NCBI RefSeq assembly: GCF_964213995.1
Contig: NC_135803.1
Span: forward strand, 54,374,001 to 54,438,000
DNA length: 64,000 nucleotides
Reading direction: 5' to 3'
Origin: Mustelus asterias
Lineage: Eukaryota
Part shown: one piece after another, positions 5,455 to 58,524 of the stretch
Layout: every line of letters starts with the position of its first letter
Position numbering within the stretch: the stretch's first letter is position 1
Notes under the pieces: generated by a model
Databases searched by the model: none
What the model saw: only the letters and a program-made list of their open reading frames with translations
What the model was told of the DNA's origin: nothing
Made by a program: the position numbers and the translations under genes

Positions 5455-6560
5455 CATTAGTTTCACCCAACTCTATCTCATCACCATCTCTCGACTCCCT
5501 TCACTGTCGCTAAATTATCAGACTACTTTTCCGACATCCAGTACCACCACAAGCAGAGATTTCCTCCAATTAAATATTGGGAAAACTAAAGCCATTGTTT
5601 ACAGTCCCCAACGCAAACTCTGTTCCCTAGCTACCAACTCCATTCCTCTCCTTGGCAACAGTCTGAGACTTAACCAGACTGTTCACAACATTGGTGTTAT
5701 TTCTGACCCCCGATATAAGCTACCAACCACATTTTGCACCATCACTAAGACTGCTTTTTTCCATCTTTGTAACACTGCCCAACTTCATTGGTTGCTAATA
5801 CCCTAATTAATGCCTGAACTATCTCGAGACTTGACTATTCCAATGTATTCCTGGCTGATGTGCCACATTCAACCACCTGTGAACTTGTGGTCATCCAAAT
5901 CTCTGCTGTCTGTGACCTAACTTGCATCTTTCCATTCAACTCTCCGCCACCCTCCCATCACCCCTCTACACTCCATGCCTGGATATGTGAGTCATTGTCA
6001 TATTTTGTTTCATCATACTTCCATGGCATACATTGGGACATTTTATTTTTGTCAAATGAACTCTATAAATATTAGTTGTTGTATTCTTCCTAAGTAATGT
6101 GCAAATTTTACACTGACTTCACAAAATATAAGGATGCATAATGGCTTTCTCAAATGTAAGGCAGGCAATGGCTTTATTTAAATTTCTCATCCTTGTTTTC
6201 AAATCCCTCCATGGCCTTGCCCTTCCCTATTTCTATAATCTCCTCCAGCCCTACAACCCTCTAAATTACGTTACTCATTTAATTCTGGCCAGTCAAGCAT
6301 CCCTAATTTTAATCCCTCCACCACTACTGGTCATGCCTCAGCTATCTGGCTCTAAGCACTGGAATTCCGTTCCAATATTGCTTTGTCTCCTTACCTCACT
6401 TTCCTCTTTTAAGATGCGCCTTAAAACCTATCTCTTTGACCTTGTCTGATCTAATATCTCTTTATGTGAGTCATTGTCATATTTTGTTTTATCATACTTC
6501 CATGGCATACATTGGGACATTTTATTTTTGTTAAATGAACTATATAAATATTAATTGTTG
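5455..6560 (+). mobile_element. L2/CR1-group LINE 3' fragment (decayed RT C-terminus and tail)
   Basis: Translation RDFLQLNIGKTKAIVY and FKFLILVFKSLHGLALPY; tail TTAAAACCTATCTCTTTGACC. Confidence 0.75.
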
Positions 6561-6891
6561 TATTCTTCCTAAGTAAAGTGCAAATTTTACACTGACTTCA
6601 CAAAATATAAGGATGCATAATGGCTTTCTCAAATGTGAGCTTAATGTTTAATAAATAAATACAATTCTATAGAACAGGCCTTGATCATAGTTTGGTGTCA
6701 CATCCAGCACATATTATGGATGAGTTTGAACTGCTGTTAAATTTGGATTTGAGCTCTTTTTGTAAAATGGAGGCTTGCTCGTGAACTCATTACTTCAAAA
6801 AAGAGAAAATCTGTAGTGGTCATTAGTTTATTTAAAATGTTAACATTACTGCTTTCCTCCAGCCATCTCAGTCACTGCCAAAACAGAGAGT

Positions 6892-7074
6892 CATAAGGTG
6901 CGAGATGCCAGCATTGGACTGGGGTGGGCACAGTAAGAAGTCTCACAACACCAGGTTAAAATCCAAAAGGTTTATTTGGTATCACTCACCTGATGAAAGG
7001 GCAGCGCTCCGAAAGCTTGTGACACCAAATAAACCTGTTGGTCTTTAACATGGTGTTGTGAGACTTCTTACTGT
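6892..7074. mobile_element. Penelope-derived hairpin element, copy 1, with 11-bp TSD
   Basis: Inverted arms 6930-6985 and 7019-7074; direct repeat AAACAGAGAGT at 6881-6891 and 7075-7085. Confidence 0.8.
6986..7022 (+). ncRNA. Minimal type I hammerhead ribozyme motif
   Basis: TCAC-CTGATGA-A-AGGGCAGCGCTCC-GAAA-GC-TT-GTGA: stem I TCAC/GTGA, CUGANGA and GAAA core boxes, short palindromic stem III. Confidence 0.7.
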
Positions 7075-7114
7075 AAACAGAGAGTGGCATCGGTTTTTTA
7101 AAAGTTTTTTTCTA

Positions 7115-11250: not shown

Positions 11251-11540
11251 GTTACTTTGATCTCCATTTCGCTGCTATTCTGTGAAATCAAACTCATGGA
11301 TTATTCTGTAACTGAGACCAGTTTTCTCCACTTGTACAAATCTTCCTCCTTCTACATTTGCCTCTATTTGTTGCAAAAGCCAGGGTCAAAATCCATGGAT
11401 TGAATACTCTATGGGTGATAGGCTCTCATCTTCAACTCGGCCTAAATACTGCACCCCATGTTTCCAATTACCCAAAATTAGCATTCTCATTACTCTTTAC
11501 AGTCACCAATCTCCATTGGTTCCCTATGAATTAACTCCCA

Positions 11541-11653
11541 CCATGCTAGTCTGAAAACACCCGATCGTGTCTGATTTTGGAATCTAAGCAGACTCAGGCC
11601 TGGTTAGTACTTGCATGGGAGACTGCCTGGGAATACCAGGTGCAGTAGGCTTT
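11541..11653 (+). pseudogene. 5S rRNA pseudogene (about 8 nt missing at the 5' end)
   Basis: CCATGCTAGTCTGAAAACACCCGATC...CTAAGCAGACTCAGGCCTGGTTAGTACTTGCATGGGAGACTGCCTGGGAATACCAGGTGCAGTAGGCTTT matches the vertebrate 5S sequence, with CpG decay and substitutions in box A and box C. Confidence 0.92.
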
Positions 11654-13880: not shown

Positions 13881-14422
13881 GTGGCAGCACAGTGGCACAG
13901 CAGTTAGCACTGCTGCCTCACAGCGCCACCCAGGTTCAATTCCAGTCTTGGGTGACTGTCTGTGCGGAGTCTACACGTTCTCCCCGTATCTGGGTGGATT
14001 TCCTGCGGGTGCTCCGATTTCCTCCCACAGTCCGAAAGACTTGCTGGTTAGGTGCATTGGCCATGCTAAATTCTCCCTCAGTGTATCCAAACAGGTAGTC
14101 ATGATGTGGAGATGCCGGCGTTGGACTGGGGTAAACACAGTAAGAAGTTTAACAACACCGGGTTAAAGTCCAACAGGTTTATTTGGTAGCAAAAGCCACA
14201 CAAGCTTTCGGAGCTCCAAGCCCCTTCTCTCACTTGAAGAAGGGGCTTGGAGCTCCGAAAGCTTGTGTGGCTTTTGCTACCAAATAAACCTGTTGGACTT
14301 TAACCTGGTGTTGTTAAACTTCTTACTGTCCAAACTGGTGCCAGGGTGTAGCGACTCAGGGACTTTCGCAGTAACTTCATTGCAGTGTTAATGTAAACCC
14401 ACTTGTGACACTAATATATAAA
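13881..14422 (+). mobile_element. HE1-type V-SINE (tail B) split by a hairpin-element insertion
   Basis: Head and V-domain 13881-14096; tail resumes at 14329 and runs to GTGACACTAATA. Confidence 0.9.
14097..14328. mobile_element. Penelope-derived hairpin element, copy 2 (92-bp stem)
   Basis: Arms 14137-14228 and 14238-14329 with one mismatch; flanking repeats TCCAAACAGGT and TCCAAACTGGT. Confidence 0.85.
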
Positions 14423-38394: not shown

Positions 38395-39551
38395 ATTTTA
38401 CCATTTTGATTCTAAGTGCTGAATCCGGGCGTGATTCAGATCCGAGTTGTAAACCTGTTCTCAGGTGCCCCCATACGCACTCAGCCTGAAAAAAAAGTCA
38501 CGAATCTGAATCGCGCTGTGGACAGGGCTTCTTGCGCCCGAAATGCTGCTGCTCTGATCAGAGCCTTCAACTGCGCATGCGCAGTTTTTAAAAATTTTAA
38601 AAATTTGAAAAGCCGATCGCGACCCCTGTCCCACTTCCCCTCCACCGATTGCCCACAGAGTGGCAGCGGACCCCCCTCCCCGCCACCAGAGATCCATCTG
38701 GTCTTCCTCCTTCTCCCCCCCCCCACCAGAGAATGATTTGGCCCTCCCCCCCCTACCCCACTCGAGAACGATCTGGCCCACCTCCCTCCCCCCCCACCAG
38801 AGAATGTTCGGGCCTCCCTCCTCCCTTCCCTCCACCAGAGAACGATCTGGCCTCCTGCCCTCCTCCCTCCCCAACCAGAGAATGATTTGGTCTCCCTCCT
38901 CCTAACCCCCACAACCATAGAACGATCCGGCCTCCCTGCACCCCTCCCCCCCACCAGTGAATGATCTGGCCTCCCTCCTCCTCCTCCCCCCCCTCAACCA
39001 GAGAACGATCTGGCCTCCCTTCCCCCCCCCCAACCAAAGAATGATCTGGCCTCCCGCCTCCTCCCCCCCACAACCTCCCCCCCCTCCAACCAGGGAATGA
39101 TGTGGCCCTCCTCCTCCCCCTCGCCCCCCAATCAGAGAACGATCTGGCCTCCCTCTTCCTTTCGATCCCCCACCCCACCTGAGAATGATCTGGCCTGCCT
39201 CCTCCTCCCCCCCCCCTCCACCAGAGAATTATCTGCCCCACCCCCACCAATCTGAGTCAGAGAGCCGCTGGAAGTTCTGGACTTATCTCTTCATAAGCTG
39301 GAGCGCCCAAAACAGACCTTTGCCGAACATGTCTGCTTTGCACTGAATCTGGACGGGCGAATGCTTTTAAATACATTTAAATTGACATCGCGCCCGTTTC
39401 AGGCATGATGTCGATCACGGCCATTTTCGGGTCTTGGTGAAGAGGGAATCGGCGTGGACACGGGTGCAGATCGTGCTATTCGCCCCAAGCCTGACCTCGC
39501 CAAGTTTTCACACCTGAAAACAGGCGCAACGCAATGGTAAAATCATTGCCC
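38395..39551. mobile_element. Non-autonomous DNA transposon (Harbinger-like MITE) with internal minisatellite
   Basis: Inverted ATTTTACCATT / AATGGTAAAAT near the ends; CR1 host sequence rejoins across it. Confidence 0.7.
38685..39250. repeat. C-rich minisatellite, about 14 units of about 40 bp
   Basis: Core CCAGAGAAYGATCTGGCC separated by variable C/T-rich spacers. Confidence 0.9.
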
Positions 39552-49357: not shown

Positions 49358-49561
49358 TGTGTGAGGAACTGCTGAAATTCCCAGATGCAGTGAAGTCCCC
49401 TGCTCAAACAGTGGAAGATTCCATTCATGAATCGAGTGAATCCATTTCTCTCACACATGAACATATTCCATTATCACTGAGAGTGGCGACCCTCATGGAG
49501 AGTAGGAGCAAGTGGATGCTGGGATTTTGAGTGGATATCCAGAGCATGGTCTCATCAATAT

Positions 49562-49725
49562 AGTAAGAAGTTTAACAACACCAGGTTAAAGTCCAACAGG
49601 TTTATTTGGTAGCAAAAGTGTGGCTTTTAGTGTGGCTTTTGCTACCAAATAAACCTGTTGGACTTTAACCTGGTGTTGTTAAACTTCTTACTGTGTTTAC
49701 CCCAGTCCAACGCCGGCATCTCCAC
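49562..49725. mobile_element. Penelope-derived hairpin element, copy 3 (opposite orientation, ribozyme core deleted)
   Basis: Inverted arms AGTAAGAAGTTTAACAACACCAGG.../...CCTGGTGTTGTTAAACTTCTTACT; TSD CTCATCAATAT at 49551-49561 and 49726-49736. Confidence 0.85.
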
Positions 49726-50249
49726 CTCATCAATATGCTCAGGGCAGTGATGGATCCTAAATATACACACATATTTATGTGTTATCAATTAGCACTTAAT
49801 GTTCAACTATATGAAACTCAGAAGCTCTTCATGGGACCTACTGAGCATATAATTTATAATAGTGAAAATCGCCCTTAAATATCGTCATCAATGGACAACA
49901 TTCAAGTCGCCGATTAAACAAGCTGCCAATCAACAGGGACTCATGCTGGCAGCCCGCCTATTTCATGATAATGAGGAACCCTGCAGTTTCATCTGCTAAC
50001 TATGTCCATGTAATTAGGTGCATACTGTCAGCTTACATTCTTACGGTAAAATCTGTTTATCCCTTATTTTCGGCAATCACTCTTTTCAAAGGCCATTAGG
50101 CCAAATTGTATTATGTCTGTCATTTGCTTGTGTGGAATTTTAAATGAAATGGATAGAGAATGGCCAGCACTTGATTTTACAACAGATGTTTGTTTTTATT
50201 CAGTTTGTTAAGTATACAATCTATTCTATACATTCTTGTTGTTATATGA

Positions 50250-50965: not shown

Positions 50966-51820
50966 GGGTTGGATTTTACATTTTTCGGAGGTGGGAAGGA
51001 GGTGGAATGGTAAGTGAGTGGTCTGCTTGCTCCAACCCTTGCTATCTCATCTCAGCAAGTCAAGCATTGGATGGCCATCCCAGCAGGAAGGAGGCCAATC
51101 TGTAATGTAATGGAGGAGATCCACGTCCAATTAGGAGTGAGGGGATGTCATGCAGCAGAGGGGCTGTGCTGCGAGAACTGAAACATTTTGAAATGTGGGT
51201 TTGCAAGAGAATGGAACGGATCAGATGGACAGAAAAAGTCAGAAGTGATAAAGTGCTGAGGTGAGTGAATGAACAAAGAAATCTGCTGAATGTAATTAAG
51301 AACAGAAACTGGATAGTGCACATCTTGAGAGGAAATGGACAGGAGGTTGGTCATGGCTACAAATGTAAAGGTCCCCAGCTCTTTGAATGTATCTTTATTT
51401 GTTTTGGAAGGCTCAAAGATGTCAATGAACAAAGTCAAAAATCATACATATGGTGTCACCTTCACTAGCAGAATCTACTGCTACATTCAGCCATCGTCCA
51501 GTGACAGGCCTTTTCTTCCACACTTGTGCAGCCTTGTCATACTTGCTGTAAAGCATACCCAAACAATTTCCTGTCTGACACCCAAAAAATGCAGCTGGCA
51601 ACAAAAAAAATTGCAAGTAAGTGGCTCTTTAACATGCTAAATAGCTTGCTAATTGGCAAATGTCAAAATGGTGGAAGGGCTCCTGATTTCAGTACCCACT
51701 TGCCTTCCATATGTTTTGAAATTGGCGTGCTGAACTCGCACTGCTGAACAGACATCACCACGCCATATTTTAGGTTCACACAGGGCGGCCGCCCAATCAG
51801 TGGTCATAAAATCCAGCCCC
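50966..51820. mobile_element. MITE-like DNA element
   Basis: Inverted ends GGGTTGGATTTTA / TAAAATCCAGCCC. Confidence 0.65.
51172..51340 (+). repeat. RTE-clade (BovB-like C-terminus) fragment, arm 1 of an inverted duplication
   Basis: HFEMWVCKRMERIRWTEKVRSDKVLR*VNEQRNLLNVIKNRNWIVHILRG; 168/169 identical to the reverse complement of 54012-54180. Confidence 0.85.
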
Positions 51821-53924: not shown

Positions 53925-54180
53925 AATATTCCTGCCAGGCAACCAGAATTGATGTTCTCTTCCTTCCTCTTACTTTTTCCTTGAAATCTTCCCTCTGTAA
54001 AGTATTTTACGGTCCATTTCCTCTCAAGATGTGCACTATCCAGTTTCTGTTCTTAATTACATTCAGCAGATTTCTTTGTTCATTCATTCACCTCAGCACT
54101 TTATCACTTCTGACTTTTTCTGTCCATCTGATCCGTTCCATTCTCTTGCAAACCCACATTTCAAAATGTTTCAGTTCTCG
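53925..54180 (-). mobile_element. RTE-clade fragment containing arm 2 of the inverted duplication
   Basis: Same sequence as 51172-51340, extended by about 85 bp of further RTE-like C-terminal sequence (GGGAAGATTTCAAGGAAAAAGTAAGAGGAAGGAAG). Confidence 0.8.
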
Positions 54181-56038: not shown

Positions 56039-57342
56039 CTCTATGAATGGTATGTTTTGTCTGTATAGCACGCAAAAAATAATACTTTTCACTGTATCCC
56101 AATACATGTGACAATAATATATCAAAAAGGTTGTTGATGTGAAGCCTCCAATAGCTCGGAACCAAGATCCCAGAACACAGTGTAAGCAAAATCCCCTTAA
56201 GTTTGGCTTCAAAAGTGAGCAATGAGACTGGATAGCCTAAAAGCCCATTGCATCACAACACTGTGATGTCAACTGTTCAAAATTAAGTGGGTGGAGTTGA
56301 ATATTTTTTTCTTCATCTGAGATGGGCAGGTTCACAGATGCAATTTATTTATTGACTCTTCGCCGTTTCTCTTTTCATTTCTAATTGGATGTAACGCCTA
56401 GAGAAAATGGAGCAAATGCTTTTCATTATGAGTAAACTTATAAAACTTCAACATACAAGTAGCACAATGAAACTCCTGAATTTCATATTTCTGCAATAGG
56501 TTTAAAGGAATGATTTTTATTTACCTGACTAGCTGGAGCCAAGGTGTCTGAAAGTTGCAGGGAACCCAGGACACGGGATTCTCTTCCCCAACACTCCAGT
56601 ATGCTCAGTGTTTAATTGACAAATTGACAGGCTTGATTCCTAATCAAGCTGGGAGCCTGTTGGTGAAGGCCGCAGTCAGGTATCACCGCAGTGGGTGGTG
56701 ATACCTGATTGTGGGGGTTGCTTGGGCAGGCAGCTGGATCTAAGGGTTAGGGGTATCTGCCATGGTTTGACTGCATGTAGCTGCCAGGATGCCCTCGGAT
56801 CAGGAAACCTGGCCAGCCAGAATGAAAAGCTGAATGTCAATGAAGTCTTTATCAGCTTCAGTATCATTTTTAATGGACCAAACCATCTCCTTGGTGTCAG
56901 CTTGGTGCCTGCCCAGCTTCCGGCCTCAGCTTGGTTGAAATCGAGGCAGATTTGGGTCAAGAATCTGACTTTTAAAGCCAATGCACCCTACTCCCACTCA
57001 ATCCATTTCAAAGATTGATATGATCTAGTTCATCTCTTTATGGCACTTTCAAGCACTGAAACTAAAGCAGCATTATAAATGCAGTTCACAAACTTCTCGA
57101 ACAATTACATATATGGTAGGTGAAGAAACTTGCAAACACAGAACACACGGCACATTCCCCATCACTACAAAGTCATAACTGGAAAAGTACAACTCATGTC
57201 TGCTTGAGATTTATGGGAAAATTACCTAACCTTCAATAAAAGAGAACTTCTCCTTATTCTCTAACCAGTCTATTGGTAAGATTGTCCTCCTTACAAAAAC
57301 ATTTTAGTGTTTTACAACTAGAGTGTGATAACAATTAATGTG

Positions 57343-57561
57343 ATGATGTGGAGATGCTGGCGTTGGGCTGGGGTGGCCACACTAAGAAGGCTTACAACAC
57401 CAGGTTAAAGTCCAACAGGTTTATTTGGTATCAGGAGCTTTCGGAGCTTCAGGTGAAGGAGCAGCCTGAGGAAGGAGCAGTCTGAGGAAGGAGCAGCTCT
57501 CTGAAAGCTCATGATTCCAAATAAACCTGTTGGACTTTAACCTGGTGTTGTGAGACTTCTT
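57343..57561. mobile_element. Penelope-derived hairpin element, copy 4, with 12-bp TSD
   Basis: TSD ACAATTAATGTG at 57331-57342 and 57562-57573; arms about 57383-57440 and 57503-57562; loop contains repeated CTGAGGAAGGAGCAG. Confidence 0.85.
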
Positions 57562-58524
57562 ACAATTAATGTGGACCACAAACATGAAGAATTGCATTAC
57601 CCTAAACTTTGCAGTATCTGGTCTATGGCGTCAGTATTGTTCTCAATCACAGTAATAAATAATTCCCACAATTTTATGTTCCTCAACCTATTGACAAATC
57701 TATAAGATTATTAGATCATAAGAAACTAGAAGCTGGAGTAGACTATTTAGCCCATCAAGCCTGCTCAACTATTTAATAAGATCATGGCGGATCTGATTGT
57801 GGCCTGAATTCCACATTCCTGCCTGTCCTCAGGACCCTTGAGTAACCCATGCTCTGCAGCCTGGCAGCAGTCAAGGGGAAATGGGCACTCAACTTACCGC
57901 CTCAAGTCCCCTCAGAGCCCAAAGTGCCAGGCCAGCGTATCAGTGTCAGGGTGCCAGGGGACAGTGCAATATTGGCACTGTCACGGCACTAGGCCTGAAG
58001 GGGGGCTGTGTGGGAGATCTGAGGGGAGAACGGGCTGGATGAGAGGGGTCTGAGGGGGATGGGGGGGGGCTGTGTGGTGAGTCTGAGGGGAAAGAGGAGC
58101 TGAGAGGGGGTCAAGCACTCTCATGCCGGTGTGGATTGGGGTAAGAGGATGCCCCCCTTTATTGTGGGGTTTCTGGTGCTCCCCTGGACCCTCGAGATCC
58201 AGCACGCCATGTCCCCACTTGTGGGTAGCACATGGAAAACCCACCTGGTGCTTGTCCCACTGGCAGGCTGGCTGAATGGCGGGAGGCTGATGAATTGGTT
58301 GTCAAACCCGCTAATGATAATCAAATTATTGGGTTTGCATAATTATCAGGTTACCATCCACTCTGGGCAGGAACCCAATCGGGGCCGGCAGGGCAGATTG
58401 GGTGAATCCCAAGGGCCCTCATGCCCATTGGGAATGCTGATTTTAGGCTGATGCCACATTCACTGCCAGCTGTCTGAAGGGGTTGGAGAATCATCCCACT
58501 GTCTGGTCTGCTGGGATTTTCCAT

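What the first reader, a model, noticed from the sequence alone, without database searches (positions are those of the whole stretch)
6881..7085. Family of short TSD-flanked hairpin retroelements carrying a hammerhead ribozyme
Seen: four insertions in 64 kb (6892-7074, 14097-14328, 49562-49725, 57343-57561) share one architecture: a ~35-40 bp unpaired tail (GATGTGGAGATGCCGGCGTTGGACTGGGGT-like), a 55-92 bp inverted repeat and an 11-12 bp TSD. In this copy the loop holds a minimal hammerhead core (CTGATGA...GAAA-GC-TT, stem I TCAC/GTGA). Established: Penelope-like elements carry minimal type I hammerheads in their pseudo-LTRs and often insert with inverted 5' segments. Inference: these are either a non-autonomous, retrozyme-like ribozyme/hairpin family or stereotyped abortive Penelope insertions. 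Either way they would seed the genome with long dsRNA hairpins and possible self-cleaving motifs.
Basis: partly seen in the sequence, partly recalled or inferred. Interest (0 to 1): 0.7.

Follow-up and report, generated by a model that had tools for sequence, protein, structure and literature searches.

The report
Penelope stumps record ribozyme cuts
These hairpins are short, dead, two-armed insertions of a very abundant Penelope-type jumping gene of a known kind, but a few percent of such insertions across the genome begin exactly where the element's tiny hammerhead ribozyme is predicted to cut its RNA, which is likely a genomic trace that the ribozyme cuts in living cells.

Summary
The four inserts are real, but they are not a replicating ribozyme family. 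They are 5'-truncated, head-to-head insertions of Neptune/Nematis-type Penelope-like elements (PLEs). The terminal 35-mer has 154,065 exact genome matches, and pLTR-ORF-pLTR masters with a ~892-aa RT/GIY-YIG ORF share it. Inverted arm, one-sided tail, TSD and minimal hammerhead are published PLE features. Breakpoints are copy-specific; the copy-1 junction is 5 of 100 listed short hairpins. Only copy 1 has a whole core plus stem I, and it lacks the conserved G10.1-C11.1 pair.

Two results go beyond the papers I found. (1) 78 of 79 inverted pairs carry one tail, on the longer or shorter arm equally (23 vs 24), arm lengths correlate, and targets are TG-N16-CA (80 of 119): likely twin priming on one RNA. 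(2) In young family B, 1,329 arms start exactly at the predicted scissile bond (151 four bases on; patterns not base-matched), and their partner passes the cut in 2 of 41 pairs against 15 of 27 controls; family C 1 of 20. Window copy 3 is of this class. Cleavage itself is untested. The scan noted these readings before, in this and other genomes.

The parts
6881..6891 (+). Copy 1 left target-site duplication (11 bp); the empty site reads TG-N16-CA
6892..6929 (-). Copy 1 PLE 'tail' (about 38 nt); in the master it ends at the ORF start codon
6930..6985 (-). Copy 1 short, tail-bearing arm; ends within 0-3 nt of the predicted cut, at a 3-nt microhomology (CAC, 6983-6985)
6983..7074 (+). Copy 1 long, tail-less arm; starts 36 nt upstream of the predicted cut
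6986..7022 (+). Minimal type I hammerhead motif; predicted scissile bond 7018/7019; lacks the G10.1-C11.1 pair, and its 3' stem I strand pairs with the inverted arm in the predicted fold
7075..7085 (+). Copy 1 right target-site duplication
14097..14328 (.). Copy 2, family B inverted insertion (arms end at -27 and -36 from the cut); core box mutated to TTGAAGA at 14234-14240; TSD 14086-14096 / 14329-14339, 10 of 11 identical
49562..49725 (.). Copy 3, family B, opposite orientation; the tail-bearing arm starts at 49630, exactly at the predicted cut (0); partner ends at +6; no hammerhead core; TSD 49551-49561 / 49726-49736
57343..57561 (.). Copy 4, older family A inverted insertion with duplicated core fragments at the junction; TSD 57331-57342 / 57562-57573

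Best explanation
The four hairpins are 5'-truncated head-to-head insertions of abundant Penelope-like retrotransposons; each was likely made when a paired enzyme cut both strands of a symmetric target and copied one RNA twice, and the few percent that begin exactly at the predicted hammerhead cut were likely copied from RNA that the ribozyme had already cleaved. Shown: membership of autonomous PLE families, copy-specific breakpoints, one tail per pair, ~12-bp TSD, TG-N16-CA target, correlated arm lengths, and a wall of 5' ends at the predicted scissile bond. Inferred: the two nicks prime reverse transcription at the two internal start sites (outer = tail end at the ATG, inner = ~37 nt upstream); both cDNAs stop at or near the same point of the template; host end-joining links them by microhomology or templated insertions. 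Inferred: because the start sites lie only ~62 and ~100 nt downstream of the cut, a cleaved linear RNA can give only stumps like copy 3, so long copies would need uncleaved or re-circularised RNA. Copy 1 itself is an ordinary microhomology junction: its long arm passes the cut by 36 nt.
For: Identity: RVT_1 E=1.3e-9 on the 892-aa ORF; GIY-YIG E=2e-4 on a truncated copy; CX4CxxC linker, DKG and YIDD motifs; pLTR-ORF-pLTR at L113 and L116; 154,065 exact terminal matches. Twin priming: of 86 candidate pairs, 79 were kept and 78 of these have exactly one tail; of 66 measurable pairs the tail arm is longer in 23, shorter in 24, within 3 nt in 19, identical in 11; arm-length rho 0.93 against a maximum of 0.74 in 2000 re-pairings; TSD mode 12 bp (51 of 143), centred TG-N16-CA in 80 of 119 sites, at most 14 for any other spacing. 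Ribozyme: stem I bp 1 covaries C-G 64 / U-A 41 of 115 arms, and the base 5' of the cut is U, A or C in 114 of 115. Cut-site wall: 1,329 family-B arms lose homology exactly at the cut against 151 four nt further on; nested counts fall 9.4% across the cut and 6.2% across the next 4 nt (49,966 / 45,289 / 42,469). Of 50 cut-site loci read, 41 were paired and the partner passes the cut by >=4 nt in 2; of 50 control loci, 27 were paired and the partner is >=4 nt longer in 15 (Fisher p=3e-6); family C, with a different sequence at the cut, 1 of 20.
Against: No cleavage was measured, and the run search gave assembled contigs only. The class is small: in 225 arms not chosen for their junction the stop rate at -2..+2 (0.68%/nt) equals its surroundings (0.55-0.62), and the larger, broad excess lies at -47..-33 (1.96%/nt). 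The patterns are not base-matched (the control forbids A at two places and the junctions are A-rich), so 1,329:151 overstates the ratio; against that, 13 of the first 30 control hits have the flank of a duplication of the post-cut bases. Family C has no shifted control count, and 6 of its 20 pairs join through a self-complementary AT. One unpaired cut-site locus (L222) also has sequence from beyond the cut. G is the commonest base 5' of cut-site ends (25 of 48), as a cap could give, but also of control ends (29 of 47). The hammerhead is not the predicted lowest-energy fold of any of four monomers. In Anolis Poseidon no RNA reads began at the cut and cleavage was dispensable in vitro (PMC11167929).
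Confidence: 0.68

Rival explanations
1. Ordinary truncated PLE insertions whose wall at position 0 is a reverse-transcriptase stall at the folded or protein-bound ribozyme core, or a by-product of microhomology joining, with no RNA cleavage.
For: Junctions are rich in microhomologies and templated insertions. Truncations are frequent all through the ribozyme region. A shared stall would also stop both cDNAs at one place.
Against: The wall sits at the predicted bond in two families with different bases there. Many cut-site arms are joined through unrelated inserts of 13-251 nt, where no partner microhomology fixes the end. Arms ending 4 nt further on have freely longer partners.
Confidence: 0.17
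2. Position 0 is a capped transcription start inside the pLTR, and both cDNAs run off the capped end.
For: G is the commonest base just 5' of cut-site ends (25 of 48). PLE promoters lie in the pLTR (PMC6765202, passages).
Against: G also leads at control ends. The only TATA- and Inr-like words in family B point to about -37, not 0 (sequence), where the broad excess lies. A start would have to fall on the scissile bond in two families.
Confidence: 0.08
3. Head-to-head palindromes arise by fold-back or self-priming, as proposed for Adineta Penelope (self-priming on an antisense template, PMC3846280), not by twin priming.
For: Arm lengths are nearly equal and loops are short, as fold-back predicts.
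Against: Fold-back fixes which arm holds tail and loop; here the tail arm is longer in 23 and shorter in 24 pairs. The wall lies at a sense-strand ribozyme site, and the target is two-fold symmetric.
Confidence: 0.05
4. A non-autonomous, retrozyme-like hairpin element that replicates as a unit.
For: Some junctions recur: one spacing in 27 of 100 short hairpins, copy 1's in 5 of 100. One head-to-tail array of three 111-bp cut-start units exists (L351).
Against: Recurrent junctions lie at microhomologies, differ in family-diagnostic bases and carry the tail on either arm. Lengths are continuous up to full-length masters. None of the four window copies is a tandem array; the L351 units hold no ribozyme core.
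Confidence: 0.02

Closest known systems
Canonical C-terminal EN+ Penelope-like elements, Neptune/Nematis type (Craig et al. 2021, PMC8557442; passages read)
   Same: Single RT + C-terminal GIY-YIG ORF, CX2-5CxxC linker, partial tandems forming pLTRs, adjacent inverted 5'-truncated copy, 30-40-bp tail at one end, hammerhead in the pLTR.
   Different: In the passages read, the tail is ascribed to EN resolution of an intermediate, Neptune targeting is linked to microsatellites, and hammerhead function is called unclear; here the target is a symmetric TG-N16-CA site and a class of ends sits at the cut. No tree was built to separate Neptune from Nematis.
Poseidon_Ac of Anolis (Frangieh et al. 2024, PMC11167929; parts 1-2 of 4 read)
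   Same: Two internal RT start sites bounding the tail, nicking and extension on both strands, predicted dimer, protein-assisted hammerhead.
   Different: There the ORF starts inside the ribozyme and RT starts 111-118 nt into the ORF; here the ATG ends the tail, ~100 nt downstream of the cut. They saw no RNA ends at the cut; the parts read do not analyse inverted pairs.
Minimal hammerheads of metazoan PLEs (Cervera and de la Pena 2014, PMC4209133; parts 1-2 of 4 read)
   Same: Type I, short helix I, 5-6-bp helix II with an extra base at 9/10.1, G10.1-C11.1, palindromic two-base helix III; that paper also noted opposite-strand motif pairs 100-700 bp apart.
   Different: [quoted passage not shown]
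Adineta vaga Pen2a with inverted pLTR, 31-bp tail, 9-bp TSD and TATA-Inr in the pLTR (Arkhipova et al. 2013, PMC3846280; passages read)
   Same: Same head-to-head layout, one-sided tail and TSD.
   Different: Explained there by self-priming on an antisense template; the arm statistics here favour two target-primed cDNAs.
Non-LTR retrozymes (bioRxiv 10.64898/2026.07.22.740005; parts 1-2 of 5 read)
   Same: PLE pLTR-related, non-coding, type I hammerhead.
   Different: Defined as head-to-tail arrays with a ribozyme in each unit; these inserts are inverted single events.
L1 twin priming (recalled, not read here)
   Same: Both target strands prime cDNA on one RNA, giving an inversion.
   Different: L1 arms cover different, non-overlapping parts of the RNA; here both arms start ~37 nt apart and overlap, giving a hairpin.

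Membership tests
EN+ Penelope-like element | One ORF with RT and C-terminal GIY-YIG joined to the same terminus | tested here: met
   892-aa ORF, RVT_1 E=1.3e-9; GIY-YIG E=2.2e-4, just under the curated cut-off, on a truncated copy; motif at residue 792; terminus 260 nt downstream
EN+ Penelope-like element | Partial tandem forming pLTRs, variable 5' truncation, adjacent inverted copy | tested here: met
   L113, L116 tandems; L111, L114, L115, L116 inverted; breakpoints spread from +21 to beyond -250 in 225 arms
EN+ Penelope-like element | 30-40-bp tail at one end and a TSD | tested here: met
   78 of 79 pairs with one tail; exact TSD >=8 bp in 143 of 169 pairs, mode 12
Neptune/Nematis-type PLE | CX2-5CxxC linker before the GIY-YIG domain (absent in Penelope/Poseidon) | tested here: met
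   CHSNLCKTC at residue 754; definition from PMC8557442
Neptune/Nematis-type PLE | RT phylogeny with reference clades | not tested
   No reference PLE proteins were fetched
Minimal type I hammerhead (family level) | CUGANGA and GAAA boxes, helix I and II with covariation, G10.1-C11.1, palindromic helix III, NUH triplet | tested here: met
   115 arms; note that the boxes were required by the script, the pairing and the H17 rule were not
Minimal type I hammerhead (copy 1) | Intact G10.1-C11.1 pair and free stem I | tested here: not met
   A at 10.1; stem I 3' strand paired to the inverted arm in the predicted fold
Minimal type I hammerhead | Self-cleavage at the predicted bond | not testable with these tools
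   Only the indirect genomic wall; no raw RNA reads
Non-LTR retrozyme | Head-to-tail array with a complete hammerhead in each unit | tested here: not met
   All four window copies are single inverted inserts
Non-LTR retrozyme | A fixed unit shared by the copies | tested here: not met
   26 junction spacings in 100 listed of 796 short hairpins
Non-LTR retrozyme | Abundant circular RNA | not testable with these tools

The most novel reading that the evidence does not exclude
The genome holds a fossil record of the PLE life cycle: a dimeric RT-endonuclease cuts a symmetric TG-N16-CA site, primes two cDNAs 37 nt apart on one RNA, and over a thousand germ-line insertions were copied from RNA whose 5' end was made by the minimal hammerhead. 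That would be in vivo evidence that PLE hammerheads cleave, and it implies that the cleaved linear RNA is a dead-end template unless it is re-circularised.
Probability: 0.6. Interest if true: 0.75.

Novelty: new member of a known kind. Interest (0 to 1): 0.55.

Why it matters
The inserts themselves are routine Penelope debris. The family statistics bear on two open questions stated in the papers read: whether PLE minimal hammerheads cleave in cells, and how PLEs make inverted, one-tailed insertions. With about 50,000 young arms of one family, both become testable at single-base resolution, and the data name the exact bond, target site and RNA ends to assay. Tens of thousands of near-perfect hairpins may also feed dsRNA or small-RNA pathways, which was not tested.

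Tried and rejected
1) First idea that copy 1's junction marks a cleavage hot spot: it came from a BLAST sample biased by the query. In a junction-neutral listing it is 5 of 100, beside other microhomology junctions, and its long arm passes the cut. Rejected for copy 1.
2) My first clade label, Poseidon: dropped after the CX4CxxC linker was checked.
3) A sharp transcription start at the TATA/Inr-like A at -37: there is a broad excess of ends at -47..-33, but family-B tile counts fall only 7.5% over those 21 nt (38,474 vs 35,598) and no extra-G signal stands out (3 G among 7 non-reference bases). Left open.
4) The first breakpoint map lacked family-A references and mis-set its cut; redone.
5) Rfam: no hammerhead model hit; the mir-879/548/2114 hits are below threshold and reflect perfect hairpins.
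6) RNA runs: no RNA holder on record, contigs only; no reads were laid.
7) A base-matched comparison of the full listings was not completed, and no shifted control count exists for family C.
8) Lunse et al. 2016 (PMC5785218) is not held; it is cited only through PMC6765202. No supplements were opened; Fig. S2 of PMC11167929 and the Repbase entries could bear on whether this family and these end statistics are already described.
9) Literature searches that found no report of twin priming or cut-site ends for PLEs: (open-access library only).

Full report
Observation. Copy 1 (6892-7074) has an exact 11-bp TSD, a 38-nt unpaired tail, a 55-bp inverted repeat and a minimal hammerhead at 6986-7022, the only core-plus-stem-I hit on either strand of the window. 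It folds far better than shuffles (z = -9.2). The other three do not carry an intact ribozyme: copy 2 has a mutated box, copy 3 has no core, copy 4 a scrambled one. Copy 1 lacks G10.1, which 113 of 115 family arms keep (paired with C in 103, with U in 10). Rfam does not detect these motifs.

What they belong to. A 35-mer of the shared terminus has 154,065 exact matches in the 3.68-Gb genome. Walking upstream gives RT and GIY-YIG frames on the same strand as the hammerhead, 15,772 RT candidates (150 scored), and pLTR-ORF-pLTR masters with a ~892-aa ORF whose ATG is the end of the tail (L113, L116). The CX4CxxC linker places it with Neptune/Nematis rather than Poseidon by the criterion in PMC8557442; no tree was made. 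At least three families (A, B, C) share the end; their similarity to the B master stops about 285 nt upstream. Copies 1 and 4 are family A, copies 2 and 3 family B. The host looks like a cartilaginous fish from its SINEs (recalled, not tested). Inverted 5'-truncated copy, one-sided 30-40-bp tail, TSD and pLTR hammerhead are all published PLE features.

Replicating hairpin or truncation products. In 225 arms from loci not chosen for their junction (window, L031-L080, L117-L150, L181-L220; most were chosen for holding the terminal 35-mer), 5' ends run from +21 to beyond -250 relative to the predicted cut. Among the first 100 of 796 short hairpins, 26 junction spacings occur; copy 1's is 5 of 100 and sits on a 3-nt microhomology. 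Copies with that junction carry the tail on either arm. Kilobase-long inverted pairs have the same layout. A retrozyme-like unit is therefore not supported.

How the hairpins likely form. Of 86 candidate pairs, 7 were dropped for lacking a TSD or a close junction; 78 of the other 79 have exactly one tail. Of 66 measurable pairs the tail arm reaches further in 23, less far in 24, and within 3 nt in 19; 11 end at the same base. Arm lengths correlate (rho 0.93; maximum 0.74 in 2000 random re-pairings). TSDs peak at 12 bp, and the empty site is two-fold symmetric, TG-N16-CA in 80 of 119 (a lead from earlier scan notes, tested here on a set that includes pattern-selected loci). Fold-back or antisense self-priming (PMC3846280) would fix which arm holds tail and loop. 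Two cDNAs primed from the two nicks at the two internal start sites shown in vitro for Anolis Poseidon (PMC11167929), stopping together on one RNA and joined by microhomology or inserts, fit all of these counts. This mechanism is inferred.

The ribozyme. At family level it looks functional: stem I bp 1 covaries (C-G 64, U-A 41), helix II pairs across sequence variants, and the base before the cut is U, A or C in 114 of 115 arms. It is not the lowest-energy monomer fold, as expected for dimer- or protein-assisted motifs. In the 225-arm sample the cut site shows no visible excess; the excess is broad and lies at -47..-33, near TATA- and Inr-like words, which I could not confirm as a start site. 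Genome-wide counts in young family B are more sensitive. Nested exact matches fall 9.4% across the cut and 6.2% across the next four bases. 1,329 arms lose homology exactly at the cut against 151 four bases on. These two patterns are not base-matched, so the safe statement is at least 2.7% of 49,966 arms at one base.

The partner test is independent of that bias. If the RNA began at the cut, neither cDNA could pass it. Of 50 cut-site loci read (of 1,329), 41 were paired, 8 unpaired and 1 unresolved; the partner passes the cut by 4 nt or more in 2 of 41, and one unpaired locus also holds sequence from beyond it. Of 50 control loci (of 151), 27 were paired, 21 unpaired and 2 unresolved; the partner is at least 4 nt longer in 15 of 27 (Fisher p = 3e-6). 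In unselected pairs with an arm ending at -30..-5 the figure is 14 of 27. Family C, with a different sequence at the cut (365 hits; 30 loci read, 6 duplicates, 4 unpaired), gives 1 of 20. The arm that reaches the cut is the tailed one in 33 of 41 (B) and 14 of 20 (C), which I cannot explain. Window copy 3 belongs to this class; copy 1 does not.

Reading. The simplest account is that a few percent of insertions were copied from ribozyme-cleaved RNA. An RT stall at the core and a capped start at the same base remain possible. Because RT starts only ~62 and ~100 nt downstream of the cut, a cleaved linear RNA would give only stumps, so productive copying would need uncleaved or circular RNA; this joins the circle model of PMC4209133 with the in vitro result of PMC11167929. 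No RNA data could test it.

What is known. The papers read call PLE hammerhead function unclear or without in vivo evidence. Eight searches of the open library found no report of twin priming or cut-site ends for PLEs; subscription papers, supplements and Repbase were not seen. Earlier AI notes of this scan reach the same readings in this and other genomes. I looked them up; they are not independent support, and they gave me the clade check, the symmetric-target test and PMC3846280.

Verdict. The finding as stated is a new member of a known kind, and the retrozyme reading fails. The family-level footprint of likely in vivo cleavage and the twin-priming statistics are what deserve follow-up. 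Interest 0.55.

Noticed in passing
window 11533-11651 (+): 5S rRNA-like sequence, Rfam 67.7 bits, directly followed by a tRNA-derived SINE; pseudogene or 5S-headed repeat.
   Followed up: no
window 38666-39251: Array of about 14 C-rich ~40-bp units with a conserved CCAGAGAAYGAT core.
   Followed up: no
window 51172-51340 and 54012-54180: 169-bp inverted repeat, 99% complementary, 2,671 bp apart; possibly the ends of a young DNA transposon.
   Followed up: no
window 5984-6160 and 6463-6639: 177-bp direct repeat, 97% identical, 479 bp apart.
   Followed up: no
L351 (G000:C4:98883400-98884800): Head-to-tail run of three 111-bp units, each a target piece plus element sequence from the family-C cut site onward, behind a long family-B copy; no ribozyme core in the units.
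   Followed up: partly
L113 pLTR, about -67 to -37 from the cut: TATA-like word 30 nt upstream of an Inr-like CCCACT at the 5' edge of stem I in families A and B; 5' ends are broadly enriched at -47..-33.
   Followed up: partly
L046, L061, L148: Separate insertions share the same TSD sequence within a repeated LINE-like target, a recurrent target site.
   Followed up: no
L221-L250, L311-L330, L281-L310: Junctions often hold templated duplications of the first post-cut bases or captured 20-250-nt pieces of other repeats, like polymerase-theta end joining (label recalled).
   Followed up: partly
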